DNA from: Octopus vulgaris
Taxonomy: Eukaryota
NCBI GenBank assembly: GCA_951406725.2
Contig: OX597816.1
Location: forward strand, 122,574,001-122,638,000
Direction of reading: 5' to 3'
Length of the DNA stretch: 64,000 nucleotides
Under the pieces are notes generated by a model. The model ran no database searches. It saw only the letters and a list, made by a program, of their open reading frames with translations, and was not told where the DNA came from. Below, piece after piece: positions 2,253 to 61,722 of this stretch. The translations under genes and the position numbers were made by a program. How positions within the stretch are numbered: position 1 is the stretch's first letter; every line of letters starts with the position of its first letter.

Positions 2253-3063
2253 TATATGTACAGTTATTATTAATATTTAATAAGGTGGAAGACATTCCAG
2301 GCAATCTATTACTTATTGTAAATATCAAAAGGGTTAAAAGACATAACTTATATTTTAACTTAGATTATTACTTTAGATTATTATTACTTTAGATTATTAT
2401 TACTTTAGATTATTCCCAGCAAGCAGTTCTTTAGCTCTTCACCTCTATATGAAATACCTACTTCCGGTTTTGAGGGCATTATATTTAGCTATTTAAATAA
2501 TCGTACTAAGTTTTAATTAATCTTCTTGAACTGACCCATATTTAAGCCCTTCTTATTACTTTTATAAGCCTATATTTACTTCCTTTTAATTCTTATTTAT
2601 TTATGTTAATTACTATATCTCTTTACTTGAGCCTCTTAACATATTTGCATCCGGTACCTCACTAAGGGAACGTTGCATATCTGAAACTTTAAAATGTTTG
2701 TCTAATTGTTCCTTATCTTTATTAATCTAGCTCAATAATAATTCTTTAAGTAGTGAAAAACTATAATTTGTAAGTCTTTATTCATTCATTTATTTTTCTC
2801 TATCTCTTCTTAATTTTACTATATTTTATTTTGTTTATTTTGTTTTATTCTTGATTATATTTTTTAAAATATATATACCCTAGCATTAAGTTAATATATC
2901 TTATAAGTCTTTTAACCCTTTCGATGTTTACAATAAATAATAGATTACCTGGAATTTTATTAATTAATTTTCTGAAGGATTTGAATTGAAACAGCTGTAA
3001 GATATGTTTGTCAATGTTTTAATTAATAAGTAATACTTTATTCTCTCTCTGTTTTCTTATCTT

Positions 3064-3116
<53 letters not shown>

Positions 3117-3119
3117 ATT

Positions 3120-3466
3120 TATTCTTTTACTTGTTTCAGTCTGTTTACTGCAGCCATGCCGGAGCACCACCTATAGTCGAACAAATCGACCCCACGACGT
3201 ATTCTTTTTAAACCGAGTACATATTCTATCGGACTCTTTTGTCGAGTCGCTAAGTTACGGTGACGTAAACACATCAACAGCGAATTTCAAACGGTGGTGG
3301 GGAGACAAACACAGATACACAAACATATACGTATATATATGACGGACTTCTTTCAGATTCCGTCTACCAAATCCACTCACAAGGCTGTGGTCGACTCGAG
3401 ACTATAGCAGAAGACAACTATGCAAGGTGCCACGCAGTGGGACTGAACCCTAACCATGTGCTTGGG
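3120..3466 (-). mobile_element. tRNA-derived SINE (family A, including 3' region)
   Basis: 3341-3466 aligns to the 2090-2252 copy. It continues through an internal (TG/TA) linker to a 3' part ending ..gactgaaacaagtaaaagaataaa. Confidence 0.85.
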
Positions 3467-34270: not shown

Positions 34271-35910
34271 CTTGCGACTAGGCACCTGGAGAAGCAAGCC
34301 CATGCCGTTCACCAGCGCCTCCGTTGTGGACCGACGGTCCGGTCGAGTTGCTCGGGGTCTGGTTCGGTCCGGACCTCCAAATGGAGAACTGGAACGAGAT
34401 AACGAGTAGGGTGGTCACTCTCGCCCGGCAATGGGCCGAGAGGAAGCTGTCCCTAAAAGGTCGGGCGGAGGTGGCGAACACGTACATCGCGTCCGTCATC
34501 TACTACCGCCTGTCCGTCGTGCCTTGTCCCGACCGTACCATCACCAAACTAGAGCGCATTCTCTTTCGCTTCTTGTGGAAAGGATGCGTCCCGATGGTCA
34601 GGCGATCCATTTGCTGTCAACACCCGTTAAAAGGAGGACTGGGCATGCCGTGGTTGATGATGCGCAGACACGCGCTGAGACTGCGACATCTCAGGCTCTT
34701 CGTAGACGACGGTGAATAGGTGTGGTCGCCGTTTGTGAGGCACGCTTTCCCGCAGCTCGTCTCCATGACCGAACTGCAATCGTGGATCAAAAAGAGGCCG
34801 AGGAAGGGCGAATGGCACCGCGAGTGTCGCGTTGCTCTCAAGCAACTCTGCCGTCCTGGGTCAACCTTGAGTGACTCCATCACAACCAAAGCATTATATA
34901 GGGGATTAGTGGAGGGGAGGTATGACGAGAAGCTCGAGGCGAACCTGGACAACTTCCAGAGATCCCTGGCCTGGCAGAGCTACCGAGAAGCGGTACCCGT
35001 TCGGGATAAGCTCTACAGACACGGCTCGAGAAACACGGGGCCGACCTGCCCGAGATGCGGTCAGAGCGACGAAACCGTTCTGCACGCACTCGTGCAGTGT
35101 CCAACAATCTCCGACCTGTGGGCTTATGTCGAACAACTGCTGTCACGTGTGGAACGAGTCGGTTTATCAGCTGAGTCTATCGTCAATATTGTTACGCCAC
35201 CTTCCTTCAAACGGGAAGGAAGAGCTATTTTCATCATCTTTGTGGCTATGGCGAAAGAATGTATCAGGTGGACGCGTCTGAAAGGATTGGAGACAAACAC
35301 TTTCCTCTCTGGTCAACCTCTCATCAACTTCTTCAAGTACCACTTGAAAAGGAAAGTGAGAGTAGAGAGGCAAGTTTTGTCTAGCGAATGTTTTAAAAAA
35401 AAGATGGGTGAATGTAGCAAGGATGGCACGTATGAATGACGAAGCCACCTTGAGCATAATCCTATGAACCCAGAAATTGAAAACAGAGGGTTACCCACTT
35501 GCAAACAAATGTGGTAACATATAACAATATTGACCAAGGTTACCGTGGTCTTTTCCGTAGGCTTTTCTTCCCACGGATAAACCTTACTTGCTTTCCCCTT
35601 TACACCATACATCATGACACTGTGATACACGATCCCTATTGATCGTCTTTTTTTCCTCTTCCTCTTTTTTCCTCTTTTTTCTTCTTTTTTTCATTTTTAT
35701 TTTCTTTTGTTCCCTTTCCTCTTTTCTTTTTTTCTTTCCTTTTTTTTTGTTCTTTTTTCCCTTTTACGGTCCCTTTTGATCAAAAACCTACGCCACCTTT
35801 TTTTTCTTGGTTCTTTTGTTGTTTTTTTTGTTTTTTTCATCCCCCAAAAGAAAAGCTCTACCTTGTAACTTGTCCCATCTGTGTGCAGCCCTGTGTGACC
35901 AATAAATAAA
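34271..35910 (+). mobile_element. L1-group, Tx1-clade LINE, 5'-truncated (post-RT ORF2, C-terminal zinc finger, 3' UTR)
   Basis: LLGVWFG, W.ERKLSLKGRAEV, FRFLW, GGLGMP, CPRCGQSDETVLHALVQC; in-frame TAG at 34717-34719; pyrimidine-rich 3' UTR; ends cagccctgtgtgaccaataaataaa. GC- and CpG-rich relative to its flanks. Confidence 0.9.
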
Positions 35911-37718: not shown

Positions 37719-40441
37719 AGTGAGTATGTGTGCGTGTGTTTTTTGGGGTGGGGAACGAAAATGAGCATCCTGAAATATAACAATATAATTTATGATAGTT
37801 CAATAATCATAAAATAAGAAGCATGCACTTACATGTAATATTATACGAGGCATTCTAGAGATATTCCAGCCGGTCAGAGGCATTCCAGCCAGTACCGGCC
37901 CGTTTGCTCTTTATTTTCCCAAGACAGTCATGCAATTTAAGGGATATCTAACTGCTACCTCTAGTTGACAGAATATGAGGTTCCTCCTTATTTGCTCGGG
38001 TTAGAATGTGTAATTAAGATCAGTTATCCCTGTATCTCATGAGCGTTTCATATCTGACATTTTCAGTTTTAAATGTTCAATATCAATGTCTCATTTTCAA
38101 TTTGTTGATGTCGATATTTCTATTGAATGTTTAAATATGGTTATGTTTATGTACCCATTTATGCTTACCTTCAAATGTTATATATTATTTGTGGGAAGTT
38201 TGGATCATCTCGCATTCAAATATTCTCTAATATTTGTGAAGAAGGTGGACTGAATCATATTCCTTAATTCATTAACACGTTGCTGGAGAATGATTGGCAT
38301 CCCCTATATAATCTCCGCCCTTGTATATTACAGAGGCCTGGATATATTCCGTTGGCTTCAAGTTATTTCTCAATATTTTAATCGGACATTTGGCAAGTGT
38401 GTGCACTTGACAGACTCAAGTGTCCACTTTGTTCATACGCAATTTATTAACAATTATCTTGAAATGAGTGAATTTTATGTTCAACCTTTCCATGTTTGTA
38501 GCGAAATTAATCTGAGATATGGAATCCCGGAGAAACATGTATACTGAAAGGTCATCTGTCATTCTTTTTGATCGTAGTCCAGGAAAATGCTGTGGATAGC
38601 CATTAAGTCACAAGACTTTATAGGATTTCTTATCACATGGGATATTATTTGCCACATCGTGACATTTACTTCTCCTCGATTAATCTTGTATTTAATGTAA
38701 AACATTTTAACAGTTGTATGTTAGACAGATTAAGACTTTTCTAAATGCTAATTCAGCGCCGTCGCTGCGTAGAATATGGTATGGCTTAATTATTTGCTCA
38801 CACCCCAGAAACACAAAACAATCTGTACGGATAGTAAATCCAATCGAATGGTATGTAAATTGTCTAATCAACGGTTATGCACTTCTTTGATTGTCGTACT
38901 TCATCGATTTTTCATAATTGTCCTACTGTAAACTCTATCATGCAGTTGGTCTCCGTATAGGGAGCCTTGTGGTATCTAGGGCGTGCCTCGTCTATTTAGT
39001 TCTCCAGTTTCTTTTGCATGGTAAAATAAACGTATAGTAACTATAACTTTAGGGGTCAAAAATTTGGTATATGATTCTTTGTGATTAACTGGATATGATG
39101 GTGACAGCTTTAGATTCTAATCTGGAGTGATTCCAGATATTTCAGTAACTTCGGCGCATATGTGAATTCTTTGTTTTCGCATTTGTGTTACATAACAAAT
39201 ATAAAAAGATTGTTCTTCAAACGGCGTCGCGGTGTCATTTTGCTAACTTATTAAAACGTATAAATGTTGCAGCCAGATGGGAAAAAATCATGCAGTTGAT
39301 AATATGGAATTAAACAGACATTGTAGAAGCTGTGTGAGTTGTACAAACAAGCTCATTGTATAGGGGTTCTCATTTATCTAGATGAACCTTTAGTTTCCTT
39401 GTGTTGTGTCACTGGATACGTGTGTTTTTGTTTTCTGTATATCTCTTTCACTGCAGATTATAATGCTGCAGATAATATTGTCGAATATTAGAAAAAAGGA
39501 AGACTGATTAAGTTTTCGCTGAAACGTTTCATATTATTCTATAAAAATGTACTGGATTTGAGTTTTGTGAGAGAACCTTGACATCGCTCACTTAATCGTC
39601 AATAAAATTGTGACTACATATAAAATCTATAATGCTGGAGATAATGTTGACAATAGGGAGAAAATTGTAACACTTAGAGGAACGACCAATTTATCGAAGA
39701 TCATAGTTGTGACCTAAAATTGATAAAGGCTGTAGTTATTGTTACTGTTGAGATGCTTCGGCCTGTTCTTTGCCTACTGAAGGCTTCATAGTAACTATTA
39801 TCTCCTAATGACGCCTTCATCGATTATACATTACTTTTCCTTTCATAGAAGTTAGAAGCAGATCTCTATGCAGTACGTATTTCACAGTTTCTGATACAAC
39901 GAAATCACACCAGATGGCAAGGCCAAGTATTCAAATTTCATAATGCAAAATGATAACGATCACATGGAAGATAGAACAATGTATCAGCACAAAAAATCAT
40001 AAGAATCACTCTTTTATAAAACCCTTTTGAATTGCACACATGTACCAGCAATAACTTTGAAGTCACTAGTAATATTGATTATGTTAAAGATAGGGAAACA
40101 AAAACACATATACGACGAACAAAAGAGGTATATGCTCATATTACAGCTGTACGACATCTTTAGATTCCTACCTGTGATTAATTCAGATCGTTGGATATCT
40201 AACTTGGTATATCAGCAGAGATCTTTTGAAGCTGGCTTCCAAAAATATCAGAAAACTGAGTATTTACAATTACCATTAATGGAGTCCTTAATGAAGCTGG
40301 AAAATTCCTAAAATATGCCATAAGGTTAGGCTATCGTACATGTATAGTACAGACATACAAACATAGGTAATTATATATATTTATATAAATTAGTGTACGT
40401 TTTTATACACAAAAGAGGTGACCTTTAACAGGACACCTTAC

Positions 40442-42412
40442 ATGCTGGAAAAGGCAGTTAAAGCCCAAACCACGAATAACAGTAATTTGAAAGGGAATGA
40501 AAAATAAAAACACTTCAAAGTTTCCCTTACACTCAAGTTTCTGCTTTAATGTGCAAATAAATTAATTTGCCATCCATGCTTCTTCAGTAAGGGTGGTAAA
40601 ATTGGTGTATATTTATGCAACACTGCGCTGCGCTGAAGTGACAGCGGAAGACCCGGAAAAAGAGAAATTAAGAAAGCTAACACTGAAGTCGTTGAATTGG
40701 GACCCTGAAAAGATGAAGAGATACTTGAGCAAAGTAGAAATAGAAGCAACGAATGTGAAGCTTGTAATGCCGGAGGAGAAAAAGAAAATGTTAAGGGATT
40801 TAACAAGAGTATACAGAACATTCTCCAAAGAATCCAGGAGGATTGAAATAGCACCGGAATTTCAAATAGAAACAATGGTATCGTGCTGTATGGATAGAGT
40901 GGTTTTCATAAATAGAGGAAGCCAATACGGCACGATAAATATTACATTTGAAAATGTGGAGGCGGCAAAGAAGAATGGCCAAGTGATAGAAGGAAATAGG
41001 TAGACTCTCATTCCCGACAAACCGGGAAAAAAGTTGGTGAAAATTAGAGTTGGAAGAATCCCACCCATAATAGAGCCCGAATGGGTAATAGTGGGAATCT
41101 TCGGAGAGAACTTTAAGAAAGGAAGTACAAACTTAAACGTTCTAACAGTGAGTAAATCACAATGTTTGAATTTTGGGGGTTATGAAATTGAAGCAGTTTG
41201 CGCTATAACCGAAGTATACTATCAGGAAATACCGGAAACGTTAGAATTACCGACCAGTGAAAAGTTGGATATTGTGCTACAGGGAAGACCCCCAAAATGC
41301 TACTTGTGTGGCATAAGGGGGCATATGAGAAGGAAATGCCCGAATACAGAAGTAGAGAAAAGGCTGGAAACAACAGTGGAAGAAAAAGCAGCCGATAAAG
41401 AGAAGATGGAGAACAATAATAGAACGAATGTGGTGAAGAGAAAGAAGAGAGAACGTAAAAAGTCACCAACTTTGGAAGAAGCAAAAAAGAGTAGGGGGTG
41501 GCAGAGAATGTAACTCATCAGAACGGTAACACCGAAGAGCCAACTATGGAAGGGATAGAGAGAGCGATGGAACTGCAAAACAAAGACGAAACAGAGCGAG
41601 AAAATTTAGAGTTGTGTAAGCTAAAAGATAGAGAACAGACGGAAGAGACGTATTTGAAAAAGTCATCAACTTTAGAAGAAACGGAAAAAAAGTAGTGGAA
41701 TGACAGAGAATATAACAGACCAGGACGGTAACACTGAGAGAATATATATAGAAGATATGTTGAGAGCGATGAAACTGCAAAGCGAAGAAGAAGTGTGGCA
41801 GTGGTTTAGGCTCAAAGAAAAAGAACAGATGGAAGAGAAGTATTTACAGTCGGGAGAAATTTCAGATACACAAAAAGAGATGAACGAAACAGTAGACTCG
41901 AGAAGAGAAACACAAGAAAAGAAAGAGAACGAGAGGAAAAATAAATGTAACAATAATAAATGTGGAAAAAAAAACGTAGATGGTAAGTATAATTACGAGT
42001 GTAATGCAACTAATTGTTTTTAAAAAAAATATGAATTGAACTGCAAATGAACTGAGAATTGAACTTATTTGTCTGTGAAATTTAATATGCAAAAAAAAAG
42101 GAAAAAATAAGGACTGGAAAAAAAGATAAAATAGAAAAAGAAAATACAAAGACTAATGTGAACAATTAATGATAAATTTTACGATATTGATAAGAAGACC
42201 ATCGCGGTTTCGCCTCACAGTGAGACCCGATGGTATTGAGAATTAATATGAAAAATTCACTGTTCGTCTCACAGAGGGAGTGAGTCGAACAGCTTCATTC
42301 TCAGTAATTATTAATCACTCCATCAATCATACATCATTTGTTTTATGTTCCCGTTTTGTCTTGTTTTGTCCCCTCTATGTAATCAGGCCATTGTGCCTAT
42401 AATAAAGAGAAA
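40442..42412 (+). mobile_element. ORF1-only non-autonomous non-LTR retroelement (HAL1-like, Tx1-type ORF1)
   Basis: One gag-like ORF with a CCHC knuckle and no RT or endonuclease. 3' end ..ccctctatgtaatcaggccattgtgcctatAATAAAgagaaa resembles the Tx1 3' end. Candidate TSD aggacac(ct/gc)tac at 40430-40441 and 42413-42424. Confidence 0.7.
40593..42023 (+). pseudogene. ORF1/gag-like nucleic-acid-binding protein, disrupted
   Basis: 40593-41003 and 41034-41513 are in frame across one TAG. RRM-like YGTINITFENVEAAKK, KIRVGRIPP, QGRPPKCYLCGIRGHMRRKCP (CX2CX4HX4C), then a K/E-rich tail with frameshifts. Confidence 0.75.
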
Positions 42413-42424
42413 AGGACACGCTAC

Positions 42425-42470
42425 CCTGAACTGATGATGGGCAATACCCAGAAACATGCATGTATTCAGG
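42425..42470 (+). ncRNA. Type I hammerhead ribozyme, intact core
   Basis: cctgaa-CTGATGA-tggg-caata-ccca-GAAA-catgcatg-TA-ttcagg. Perfect 6-bp stem I, 4-bp stem II, palindromic stem III (acatgcatgt), GUA cleavage triplet at 42462-42464. Confidence 0.85.
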
Positions 42471-42738
42471 TTGCTGTTCCTAGCTGGTGGGGGTGCTTGC
42501 CTCCCCTTTGCGAATATAAATACACAGAAAATGTGTCAAAGCCGACAGGAAGCGTCGATGCTTCCTAGGGCTATATAGCGGTGGTGTAATTCCCTCTACG
42601 GGACTGTCACATTTTGTTGACTTTATACAACCACTTTATCGCTCCACCACCGCTCATGTCTCGTTGAGACATTTAGAAATTCATTATTTCTAAATATATA
42701 TATAAATATATATATGTTTATATATATATATATATATA

Positions 42739-52858: not shown

Positions 52859-55637
52859 CAAGCAGTATAACCCGGCCTTGCCCGGGATTAAGTTACGATT
52901 ATTAAGTTAATCAAGTTCTTTATTTCAAACCAAACTAAGTAATATAGACGTCAAATTTGGGCGATATCCGTTGAAATTAGTTATATATATTATATATATT
53001 ATATATATATGATATAATATAAATATATATGGGCAACAGACACGAACACACATACACACACGTACGCATACATGTTCATAAACAGAAATGAATGGAAAAA
53101 ATGTTTTTAAATTTGTAGATTAAAACTCGCACGATTTTCACTAAAGTATATATACAAGGATTATAGAATATAGTGTCTTTCAAGAACAAAAAAACAAAAC
53201 ATTTTAATTTAATTTTTTATGAACGTCATAACTTACTCTCTCTCTCTCTCTCCCTCTCACTTTGTCTTTCCCATGAAACTCTCTGCCTCCTTCTTCCACT
53301 TTTCTTTATCTTATTTTTTTGTTAGACACTGGCAAAAAAGCTAAGGCTGTTTATGAACGTTGTCATTTAATCTCTGTCTCTCCCTCTCTCACTTTGTCTT
53401 TCCCGTGAATCTCTCTACCTCCTTCTTCCACTTTTCTTTATCTTATTTTTTTTTGTTAGACGCTGGCAAAAACGTTGTCATTTATTCTGTCTCTCCCTCT
53501 CTCACTTTGTCTTTCCCGTGAATCTCTCTACCTCCTTCTTCCACTTTTCTTTATCTTATTTTTTTTTGTTAGACGCTGGCAAAAACGTTGTCATTTAATC
53601 TCTGTCTCTCCCTCTCTCACTTTGTCTTTCCTGTGAATCTCTCTACCTCCTTCTTCCACTTTTCTTTATCCTATTTTTTTGTTAGACACTGGCAAGAACG
53701 TTGCCATTTAATCTCTGTCTCTCCGTCTCTCACTTTGTCTATCCCATGAAACTCTCTGCCTCTTTCTTCCACTTTTCTTTATCTTATTTTTTTGTTAGAC
53801 ACTGGCAAAAAAGCTGAGGCTGTTTATGAACGTTGTCATTTAATCTCTGTCTCTCCCTCTCTCACTTTGTCTTCCCCGTGAATCTCTCTACCTCCTTCCA
53901 CTTTTCTTTATCTTATTTTTTTTTTGTTAGACGCTGGCAAGAACGTTGTCATTTAATCTCTGTCTCTCCCTCTCTCACTTTGTCTTTCCCGTGAATCTCT
54001 CTACCTCCTTCCACTTTTCTTTATCTTATTTTTTTTGTTAGACGCTGGCAAGAACGTGGTCATTTATTCTCTGTCTCTCCCTCTCTCACTTTTTCTTTCC
54101 CGTGAATCTCTCTACCTCCTTCTTCCACTTTTCTTTATCTTATTTTTTTTTTGTTAGACGCTGGCAAAAACGTTGTCATTTAATCTCTGTCTCTCTCTCT
54201 CTCACTTTGTCTTTCCCGTGAATCTCTCTACCTTCTTCTTCCACTTTTCTTTATCCTATTTTTTTGTTAGACACTGGCAAGAACGTTGTCATTTAATCTC
54301 TGTCTCTCCCTCTCTCACTTTGTCTTTCCCGTAAATCTCTCTGCCTCCTCCTTCCACTTTTCTTTATCTTATTTTTATGTTAGACGCTGGCAAGAACGTT
54401 GCCATTTAATCTCTGTCTCTCACTCTCTCACTTTGTTTTTCCCGTGAATCTCTCTGCCTCCTTCTTCCACTTTTCTTTATCTTATTTTTTTGTTAGACGC
54501 TGGCAGGAACGTTGTCATTTAATCTCTGTCTCTCCCTCTCTCACTTTGTCTTTCCCGTAAACCTCTCTGCCTCCTTCTTCCACTTTCTTTATCTTATTTT
54601 TTTGTTACACGCTGGCAAGAACGTTGTCATTTAATCTCTGTCTCTCCCTCTCTCACTTTGTCTTTCCCGTGAATCTCTCTGCCTCCTTCTTCCACTTTTC
54701 TTTATCTTATTTTTTTCTGTTAGACGCTGGCAAAAACGTTGTCATTTAATCTCTGTCTCTCCCTCTCTCACTTTGTCTTTCCCGTGAATCTCTCTGCCTC
54801 CTTCTTCCACTTTTCTTTATCTTATTTTTTTTGTTAGACACTGGCAAGAACGTTGTCATTTAATCTCTGTCTCTCCCTCTCTCACTTTGTCTTTCCCGTG
54901 AATCTCTCTGCCTCCTTCTTCCACTTTTCTTTATCTTATTTTTTTGTTAGACACTGGCAAGAACGTTGTCATTTAATCTCTGTCTCTCCCTCTCTCACTT
55001 TGTCTTTCCCGTGAATCTCTCTACCTCCTTCTTCCACTTTTCTTTATCTTATTTTTTTGTTAGACGCTGGCAAGAACGTTGTCATTTAATCTCTGTCTCT
55101 CCCTCTCTCACTTTGTCTTTCCCTTGAAACTCTCTGCCTCCTTCTTCCACTTTTCTTTATCGTATTTTTTTTTGTTAGACACTGGTAAGAACGTTGTCAT
55201 TTAATCTCTGTCTCTCCCTCTCTCACTTTGTCTTTCCCGTGAATCTCTCTACCTCCTTCTTCCACATTATGGTTTTTTTTGTTGTTAGATACTGGCAAGA
55301 ACGTTGCCATTTAATCTCTGTCTCTCCCTCTCTCACTTTGTCTTTCCCGTGAAACTCTCTGCCTCCTTCTTCCACTTTTCTTTATCTTATTTTTTTGTTA
55401 GACGCCATAAAAAAACCAGGGCTGATATTTTTCGTGTCTAAAAGCTATATCTGAAAATAGATATTTATGCTACCCACGGGTGCCTCGGGGACAAAAATAA
55501 GTTGACAAAACCCAGAGGGTGTGTTGACAAACGTCCTCCTAAAATTGGAGCGACATGCGGTCTAATTTGTGGACGTGCATTAATTACAATCACGTACACA
55601 CACACACGCACACACATCCTCCCTTTTATAGATATGA
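52859..55637 (-). mobile_element. Non-autonomous Helitron-like element carrying a tandem array
   Basis: Minus strand starts A|TCatatctataaaaggg (55637) and ends cccgggcaaggccggg hairpin plus tatactgcttg|T (52859). The same type of hairpin ends the Helitron at 49062-49092. The terminal CTTG is a variant of CTRR. Confidence 0.7.
53222..55406. repeat. Tandem minisatellite/satellite array, ~113-bp unit, ~19 copies
   Basis: Unit aacgttgtcatttaatctctgtctctccctctctcactttgtctttcccgtgaatctctctacctccttcttccacttttctttatcttattttttttgttagacgctggcaag, counted manually. Units are adjacent with no unique spacers. Confidence 0.95.
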
Positions 55638-60750: not shown

Positions 60751-61322
60751 AAAAAATATTCCGTGACAGCTACATTCACCGACCTAGACTATTTTTTTCT
60801 AGATGTCATATAGTGACAAACAAATCTGTGCTGCTCACTCACAGGACTTGCCGGGTGAGTGACCGTCGCCTGAAGTTCCGTCCTCATTTAAACCGTTGTT
60901 TTGTACTAATTCTTTTATCCTTTACTCTCATCTGGAGAAAAGTGGTGATAAAGTGTCACGGCCACCATTATATTTTTATCGAGATACCATCTCTAGAGTG
61001 TTTGTCTCAAAATACCATTGTCCCTCTACCAGCAAATGAGCTACCCTGCGTGGGACACCAACCCAGTACTCCGCGTTGAGGTCAAGAGTTACATACATCT
61101 AATGTCATGAACTGAGCCGGAAAGATTGCTTGGAGAGACATTTTAAAGTGCGGAACTATTAGTAGCTCTTTAATAATCGCGTATATTAAATGTCATATAC
61201 ATATATATATATATATATACATACATACATACATACATACATACATACATACATACATACATACATACATACATACATACATACATACATACATACATAC
61301 ATGTGCGTGTGTGTGTACTAAG

Positions 61323-61722
61323 GCGTGTAGCTGCATCAAAGTGGCAGTTGAATGTTACTACAAGTTTAACCCCAGGTGAATTCTCTACCAGCTGGTTTTC
61401 GGTGCAAGTTCTGCACCCTTTATATACAATACATCACTAGTAGGAAGAGCGAACCCCTGTTACCCTCCACCAGCTCACAGGATCGCAGGACGGACCCAGT
61501 TTCGAGCTATTTGGCTTATCGTCAGCCACGCACACCTGTGCAATGAAGATATAGCTAAGATCCGCTTCTGCCAGCGATATATTGTAAACAAAGTGACCAT
61601 CGGTCACTGATTTGCAACAAGCAAAATAGCTAGTTATAAAATCTCTAGAAGAGATAAAGTAGTAACGTATACAAAACAGTAAAGCGAGTAGCCACATCAA
61701 AGTGGCAGTTGAATGTTACTAC
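61323..61722 (-). mobile_element. Retrozyme-like unit: 361-bp period with terminal direct repeat and internal hammerhead
   Basis: catcaaagtggcagttgaatgttactac is identical at 61334-61361 and 61695-61722 (extends to ~39 bp with 3 mismatches); the hammerhead lies between the two copies. Confidence 0.6.
61476..61540 (-). ncRNA. Type I hammerhead ribozyme motif with extended stem I
   Basis: Minus strand cacagg-tgtg-cgtgg-CTGACGA-ta-agc-caaata-gct-c-GAAA-ctgggtccg-TC-ctgcg-at-cctgtg. Stem I cgtgg/ctgcg, internal loop, then cacagg/cctgtg; GUC triplet; stems II and III carry mismatches. Confidence 0.7.

What the first reader, a model, noticed from the sequence alone, without database searches (positions are those of the whole stretch)
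42475..42552. Unexplained covarying RNA motif directly downstream of two different hammerheads
Seen: after stem I both units read agctggtgg, a purine/pyrimidine hairpin, atataaa, a short stem with 7-nt agaa..t loop, aaa, then a closing stem. Here: agctggtgggggtgcttgcctcccc..atataaa-t-acac-agaaaat-gtgt-caaagccg. Minus strand of 61390-61475: agctggtggagggt..ctcttcc..atataaa-g-ggtgc-agaactt-gcacc-gaaaaccagct. Stem sequences differ but pairing is kept, while the single-stranded parts are conserved. Inference: a conserved multiway-junction element (RT-recognition or priming signal, ligation helper, or uncharacterised ribozyme). This rests on only two copies.
Basis: partly seen in the sequence, partly recalled or inferred. 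Interest (0 to 1): 0.75.

Follow-up and report, generated by a model that had tools for sequence, protein, structure and literature searches.

The report
Conserved fold of a hammerhead retrozyme
The motif is part of a roughly 355-base repeat with a predicted self-cutting RNA, present in over 11,000 copies; two of its hairpins keep their pairing across divergent families and likely guide a borrowed copying enzyme, while the proposed multi-branched junction is not supported.

Summary
Both stretches are in the sequence. They are not two independent finds: they belong to two families of one superfamily of 352-362-nt hammerhead repeats (non-LTR retrozymes; 11,134 matches to one hairpin signature, 0 in the control). 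With four main families in hand, the multiway junction fails. 'agctggtgg' and 'atataaa' are not conserved, and the supposed closing strand pairs downstream instead. What holds: (1) the first half is the 3' strand of a predicted ~50-bp rod extending hammerhead stem I, with a hairpin as alternative fold; (2) two covarying hairpins, H2 and H3, lie just upstream of the two fixed ends of insertions, which look Penelope-type. Best reading: scaffold for circle closure plus recognition site for a Penelope-type reverse transcriptase (inferred; no autonomous partner found). An added lead: the pyrimidine tract resembles an element of this genome's U1 genes and sits at the same ~200-nt spacing from the next promoter element. 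TATA box, snRNA 3' box and known ribozymes were tested and not met. The scan already noted these retrozymes, their shared fold, and the Tx1 LINEs that target them, on other DNA.

The parts
40627..42412 (+). 5'-truncated, ORF1-only Tx1-clade LINE derivative (zinc-knuckle ORF with an internal stop) whose 3' end with AATAAA abuts the repeat; it replaces the upstream rod strand in this copy
   Evidence: (zf-CCHC, E 1.3e-4)
42414..42474 (+). Unit 1 (family A): target-site remnant and type I hammerhead; core 42431-42454, predicted cleavage after 42464
   Evidence: cleavage not tested
42475..42517 (+). 3' strand of the rod extending stem I in intact monomers; alternative hairpin H1 at 42489-42506; U1-like pyrimidine tract at 42496-42511
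42521..42537 (+).
42540..42572 (+).
42577..42693 (+). Branched domain H4 and tail; insertions end near 42635 or near 42692, here followed by (TA)n
61319..61722 (-). Unit 2 (family B): one 361-nt monomer with a 43-nt terminal direct repeat, set in microsatellites
61605..61611 (-). ATCAGTG, like the proximal promoter element of this genome's U1/U2/U4/U5 genes, 86 nt before the hammerhead core
61535..61592 (-). 5' strand of the rod (unit 2)
61481..61534 (-). Type I hammerhead of unit 2; core 61525-61500, predicted cleavage after 61489
61419..61480 (-).
61401..61417 (-). Hairpin H2 of unit 2
61368..61397 (-). Hairpin H3 of unit 2, with an A-U pair where families A, D and F have G-C

Best explanation
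The motif is the non-catalytic body of a hammerhead retrozyme repeat: its first half is predicted to be one strand of a long rod that would hold the cut ends together for circle closure, and its two covarying hairpins likely help a Penelope-type reverse transcriptase bind and start copying just downstream. Shown: repeat superfamily, tandem 352-362-nt units, family-specific pairing, two fixed insertion ends. Inferred steps: transcription from an snRNA-type promoter in the unit, read-through into multimers, hammerhead cleavage, rod-assisted ligation into circles, binding of H2-H3-H4 by a Penelope protein in trans, reverse transcription from two sites about 50 nt apart, insertion into (TA)n. Hairpin H1 would form when the upstream strand is absent (first unit after the start site, released product, LINE-interrupted copies) and could aid strand exchange.
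For: Signature count 11,134 vs 0; 6 hits in 790 kb of random stretches vs 1 for the reversed control. Ten natural head-to-tail units fold as circles at z -3.9 to -11.1. Rod predicted in 16 of 18 copies with an intact upstream strand, outer part only in 2 (read by eye). Strand-swap test on 15 copies: cognate duplex best in 6 of 6 rows and 5 of 6 columns. H2+H3: 15 pairs, 92.7% of cells paired vs 83.5% shuffled and 26-58% slid; 7 pairs with two-sided change; RNAalifold finds the same two hairpins. Insertion ends cluster 40-79 and 100-149 nt after H3 in all four families, with inverted truncated duplicates; in a Penelope element two internal RT start sites make such a tail (PMC11167929, parts 1-2 of 4 read). 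LINE-carrying composites with inverted duplicates (2 loci) keep H2-H4 while the upstream rod strand is displaced.
Against: No autonomous partner: 6 of 178 loci with H3 also hold a Penelope protein match, none joined upstream of a unit on its strand (one Neptune protein as query). The Neptune terminal repeats seen lack H2/H3. The two measures that count pairs and pair types do not exceed the shuffles (340 and 355 of 500), so the covariation rests on few family-level events, and part of H3 was fixed by my search pattern. Family F shifts the register of H2. In the Anolis element the needed RNA lay around and 3' of the start sites and the hammerhead was dispensable in vitro (PMC11167929). D1 upstream strands pair with D2 downstream strands as well as with their own. 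No structure probing, cleavage or binding data.
Confidence: 0.55

Rival explanations
1. The pyrimidine half of H1 also works as DNA: a distal enhancer for the snRNA-type promoter of the next unit, which would help fix the monomer length near 355 nt. This can hold together with the best explanation.
For: YTCCCYT is in 21 of 21 U1 upstream regions, at -245 to -265 and 186-208 nt before the proximal element; background 0.24 per 400 nt. A matrix from these sites picks the H1 3' strand as best site in A1 29 of 31, A2 8 of 9, D1 45 of 50, D2 9 of 9, F 12 of 12; spacing to the next proximal element is 199-203 nt in A1, B, D1, F. Proximal-element-like site 81-87 nt before the core in 8 of 9 copies.
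Against: B: 0 of 21. Median scores 3.9-8.7 bits vs 19-24 for U1 itself (self-trained); in F the other strand usually scores higher (10 of 12). Only 5 of 17 U5, 1 of 6 U4 and 1 of 17 U2 genes have the motif. One D2 locus gives 179 nt. C-runs are expected in any G/C hairpin, and some subfamilies change the run while keeping the hairpin. No unrelated family was found to test it on.
Confidence: 0.3
2. H2 and H3 only make the circle compact and stable or bind a host protein (export, protection, ligase), with no role in reverse transcriptase recognition.
For: Animal retrozyme circles are described as highly self-paired and ligated by RtcB (PMC7229834, parts 2-4 of 6). Hairpins recur all round the monomer. 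No shared sequence with a Penelope terminal repeat.
Against: The internal-loop region of H3 keeps its sequence across families that are only about 40-55% alike, more than compactness needs, and it lies at a fixed distance from the insertion ends.
Confidence: 0.3
3. The Tx1-clade LINE found beside the units is the mobiliser, and H2-H3 is its recognition signal.
For: LINE 3' end is followed by a hammerhead unit in 26 of 30 loci; intact-looking ORF2 with endonuclease, RT and zinc domain.
Against: The LINE has its own ends and makes an ordinary target duplication off target (L281); one LINE family is joined to different unit subfamilies; unit insertions have tails and inverted duplicates unlike that pattern.
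Confidence: 0.08
4. One reading: a separate element or a new ribozyme closed by agctggt with accagct.
For: The pairing can be drawn in family B (6 or 7 of 7 pairs in 16 of 21 copies); the layout loosely mimics a type III hammerhead.
Against: Best pairing is 5 of 7 in most A, D and F copies (G-U allowed, many positions tried, no control run); the 3' strand pairs downstream with a two-sided change; linkers vary; no Rfam match.
Confidence: 0.04

Closest known systems
Animal non-LTR retrozymes (mussel 350-390 bp, coral, axolotl; PMC7229834, parts 2-4 of 6 and passages read; preprint 10.64898/2026.07.22.740005, parts 1-3 of 5 read)
   Same: Non-coding tandem units of about 350 nt, one type I hammerhead each, highly self-paired predicted circles, Penelope elements in the same genome.
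   Different: Here several families at 40-55% identity allow a covariation-based fold of the body; no homologous Penelope terminal repeat was found, unlike the Xenopus cases in the preprint; mostly dispersed one- to three-unit insertions in the loci seen. The mussel sequences and folds in the supplement could not be read.
Penelope-like element pseudo-LTR with tail (PMC11167929, parts 1-2 of 4; PMC8557442 and PMC4209133, passages)
   Same: Two alternative 3' ends, inverted 5'-truncated duplicates, microsatellite targets, hammerhead upstream of the ends.
   Different: No RT/GIY-YIG ORF attached; tail about 50 nt rather than 30-40; canonical-sized hammerhead with a long stem I extension.
Newt satellite 2 with an snRNA-type promoter (seen only as a passage and reference in PMC2220036; the primary paper is not held)
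   Same: Hammerhead repeat with an snRNA-type internal promoter (here predicted from likeness to this genome's snRNA genes).
   Different: A distal element overlapping a structured RNA segment is my proposal; not compared with the newt sequence.
Target-specific Tx1-clade LINEs (Tx1L, Keno, Tx1-Mar; PMC4494074, passages)
   Same: LINE inserted at one site of another repeat with target duplication and tandem insertions.
   Different: The target is a hammerhead repeat, about 25 nt before the core; a side finding that the scan noted before.

Membership tests
Non-LTR retrozyme | Type I hammerhead in each unit | tested here: met
   Core, stems and cleavage triplet in both window units and the families; Rfam models did not score them
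Non-LTR retrozyme | Head-to-tail units of 150-450 bp without ORF | tested here: met
   Ten natural repeats, 352-362 nt plus one 390-nt chimera, from families B and D; A and F seen as overlapping pieces only
Non-LTR retrozyme | Stable self-paired circle fold | tested here: met
   z -3.9 to -11.1; prediction only
Non-LTR retrozyme | Self-cleavage and circular RNA in vivo | not testable with these tools
   No assay or raw reads
Penelope pseudo-LTR | Joined to an RT plus GIY-YIG ORF | tested here: not met
   0 of 178 loci with H3 (one query protein, about 1.5 kb flanks for most loci)
Penelope pseudo-LTR | Tail, inverted truncated duplicate, microsatellite target | tested here: met
   TA-rich flank scored in 61 of 136 copies by a rough measure
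snRNA 3' box | Match to this genome's U1/U2/U4/U5 3' box after a terminal hairpin | tested here: not met
   Median -5.9 to -12.1 bits vs 4.7-20.8 for the genes; top rank in 1 of 123 copies
TATA box | TATA sequence kept across families | tested here: not met
   Absent in D; partly paired in the predicted rod
snRNA-type promoter | Proximal element 55-60 nt before the start | tested here: met
   58 of 59 gene sites at -55 to -60; best site 81-87 nt before the core, about 56-62 before the LINE site, in 8 of 9 copies; start site itself not mapped
snRNA-type promoter | Distal element about 200 nt before the proximal element | tested here: inconclusive
Twister-sister-like minimal ribozyme | Internal loop of 5 and 6 nt with conserved CA (PMC11620745, passages) | tested here: not met
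   H3 loop is 3-4 by 2-3 nt, without CA in B, D, F
Any Rfam family | Covariance-model match | tested here: not met
   0 at gathering score in the window; at E up to 1 in four loci, 25 matches, all outside the monomers

The most novel reading that the evidence does not exclude
A doubly coded parasite cassette: the same bases serve as an RNA rod/hairpin switch that closes the circle and as a DNA enhancer borrowed from U1 genes that fires the next unit, while H2-H3 is the first defined signal by which an animal retrozyme recruits a Penelope reverse transcriptase without sharing any sequence with it.
Probability: 0.22. Interest if true: 0.75.

Novelty: new variant of a known kind. Interest (0 to 1): 0.42.

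Why it matters
How animal retrozymes are transcribed, circularised and recognised by a reverse transcriptase is open (PMC7229834 and the 2026 preprint both leave it so). Divergent families with a shared fold, two fixed insertion ends and an identifiable promoter layout turn this into specific mutational tests. The value is in the corrected anatomy and the testable roles, not in a new class of RNA.

Tried and rejected
Multiway junction, TATA box, snRNA 3' box, twister-sister-like loop: tested, not met. Degenerate type III hammerhead and H/ACA-like readings: considered from recalled family features, dropped because the linkers vary; not tested separately. Likeness of H1 to the U1 terminal hairpin: seen by eye, not tested. 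Pattern for H2 variants with a pyrimidine at the first pair: 10 hits, 9 look like an unrelated repeat, 1 a damaged F copy. ORF listing around units showed nothing Penelope-like in the part displayed (cut). Expression: no RNA holder listed; contigs of four runs of guessed kind covered parts of a D unit without joints, which says nothing on expression or circles. Search for unrelated hammerhead families with the same promoter element: none. Relatives in other genomes: not examined; none are held for this window. Literature on the U1-like tract: no relevant paper among 25 of 126 listed. Tx1 with hammerhead: 1 unrelated paper. PMC10085705 seen as abstract only; PMC10886601 and PMC13652810 passages were not relevant. 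Supplement of PMC7229834 unreadable; preprint supplements closed; both may bear on novelty.

Full report
Observation. Both stretches are as described and each follows a type I hammerhead core. Rfam finds nothing in the window. The genome is 2.8 Gb in 227 contigs; a cephalopod is my inference from that and is not shown. Each unit belongs to a repeat family.

More families. Clustering 141 distinct hammerhead-to-H3 segments gives four main families about 40-55% alike. Natural head-to-tail repeats are 352-362 nt, non-coding, and fold as circles far better than shuffles. This fits animal non-LTR retrozymes (PMC7229834).

The junction fails. In 132 copies (9 rearranged ones dropped), exact AGCTGGTGG is common only in A (23 of 40) and exact ATATAAA only in B (13 of 21); D has neither. 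The supposed closing 3' strand pairs downstream as the base of H3: 4 of 4 pairs in 120 of 132 copies, with A-U in B where the others have G-C. My pattern fixed part of this helix, but not that covariation. On 52 aligned copies H2 and H3 have 92.7% of cells paired, above all 500 shuffles and all slid controls, and 7 of 15 pairs change on both sides; the counts of pairs and pair types do not exceed the shuffles, so independent events are few. F shifts the register of H2.

The rod. With the upstream part of the monomer present, the segment from agctggtgg to atat is predicted to pair with it as a rod of about 50 bp that extends hammerhead stem I: 16 of 18 intact copies, outer part only in 2, including window unit 2. 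Cognate strands give -30 to -52 kcal/mol, swapped ones -13 to -37; within D the test is one-sided. It is kept in all families, with changes on both sides between D subfamilies, and is predicted where the upstream strand is missing, as in window unit 1.

Insertion ends. Copies end 40-79 or 100-149 nt after H3 (122 of 136 copies), often before TA repeats (41 of 57 in D; 20 of 79 in the others by a rough measure), and often have an inverted truncated duplicate. In a Penelope element, two internal start sites of reverse transcription produce such a tail (PMC11167929). H2-H3-H4 thus lie directly upstream of the inferred start sites, which is my ground for a recognition role. No Penelope ORF is joined to a unit in 178 loci, so the partner is unidentified.

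The LINE. Unit 1 is preceded by an ORF1-only LINE derivative. A full-length relative with endonuclease, RT and zinc domain is followed by a hammerhead unit in 26 of 30 loci and preceded by the rest of a unit in 15 of 16 copies with a 5' end, of 18 examined. It joins different subfamilies and makes an ordinary duplication off target (L281). It is a passenger that targets the repeat. Earlier notes of the scan reported this and proposed that the site is an snRNA-type start; I took that lead.

Promoter tests. U1, U2, U4 and U5 genes here share ATCAGT at -55 to -60 and a 3' box. The monomers have the first at the expected distance in 8 of 9 copies. All 21 U1 genes carry YTCCCYT 186-208 nt before the proximal element; the 3' strand of H1 is the best such site in 103 of 111 A, D and F copies and in 0 of 21 B copies, 199-203 nt before the next proximal element. 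Scores are modest and a C-run is expected in a G/C hairpin, so this stays a lead. I did not see it in the earlier notes shown (8 of 270 listed).

Known work. Nine of my ten searches bore on print coverage (one search was on 3' boxes); none listed a description of these hairpins or of cephalopod retrozymes. The library lacks most subscription papers, and the supplement with mussel folds was unreadable. A shared fold between families was noted earlier in this scan (e1-8670182).

Verdict. New variant of a known kind; interest 0.42.

Noticed in passing
window 40400-40625 (-): A third hammerhead-like unit (core 40587-40538) of another repeat family with inverted partial copies; it lacks H3 and matched no Penelope locus held.
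   Followed up: partly
window 34282-35910 (+): 3' part of another Tx1-like LINE ending in AATAAA followed by a (CTAT)n array, not by a hammerhead unit.
   Followed up: no
window 53355-55405: 113-bp tandem array, about 18 copies, 91% matches.
   Followed up: no
L064 about 3000-3200; L270 about 1280-1500: Cross-family targeting: the A-type LINE derivative sits before a D-type unit, and the D-type LINE before an A-type unit.
   Followed up: partly
L308 and L358, upstream of U2: A LINE-like 3' end with AATAAA directly abuts the first base of two U2 genes, as earlier notes reported.
   Followed up: no
L280 and L290: The units on the two sides of the LINE belong to different subfamilies, so these copies are not simple insertions; recombination or template switching is likely.
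   Followed up: no
L291-L366: This genome's U1, U2, U4 and U5 genes share a clear proximal element and a 3' box ending in YAGAY; U1 genes share a distal pyrimidine motif.
   Followed up: partly
window 42577-42654 and equivalents: H4 is predicted as a stem enclosing up to three small hairpins; the first insertion end falls in the last of them.
   Followed up: partly
L287 3730-4660: Young Neptune-type Penelope family with a 781-aa ORF, repeated CCAAT/CRE-like motifs, a TATA-like site and a degenerate hammerhead before (TA)n; a candidate mobiliser (motif names recalled).
   Followed up: partly
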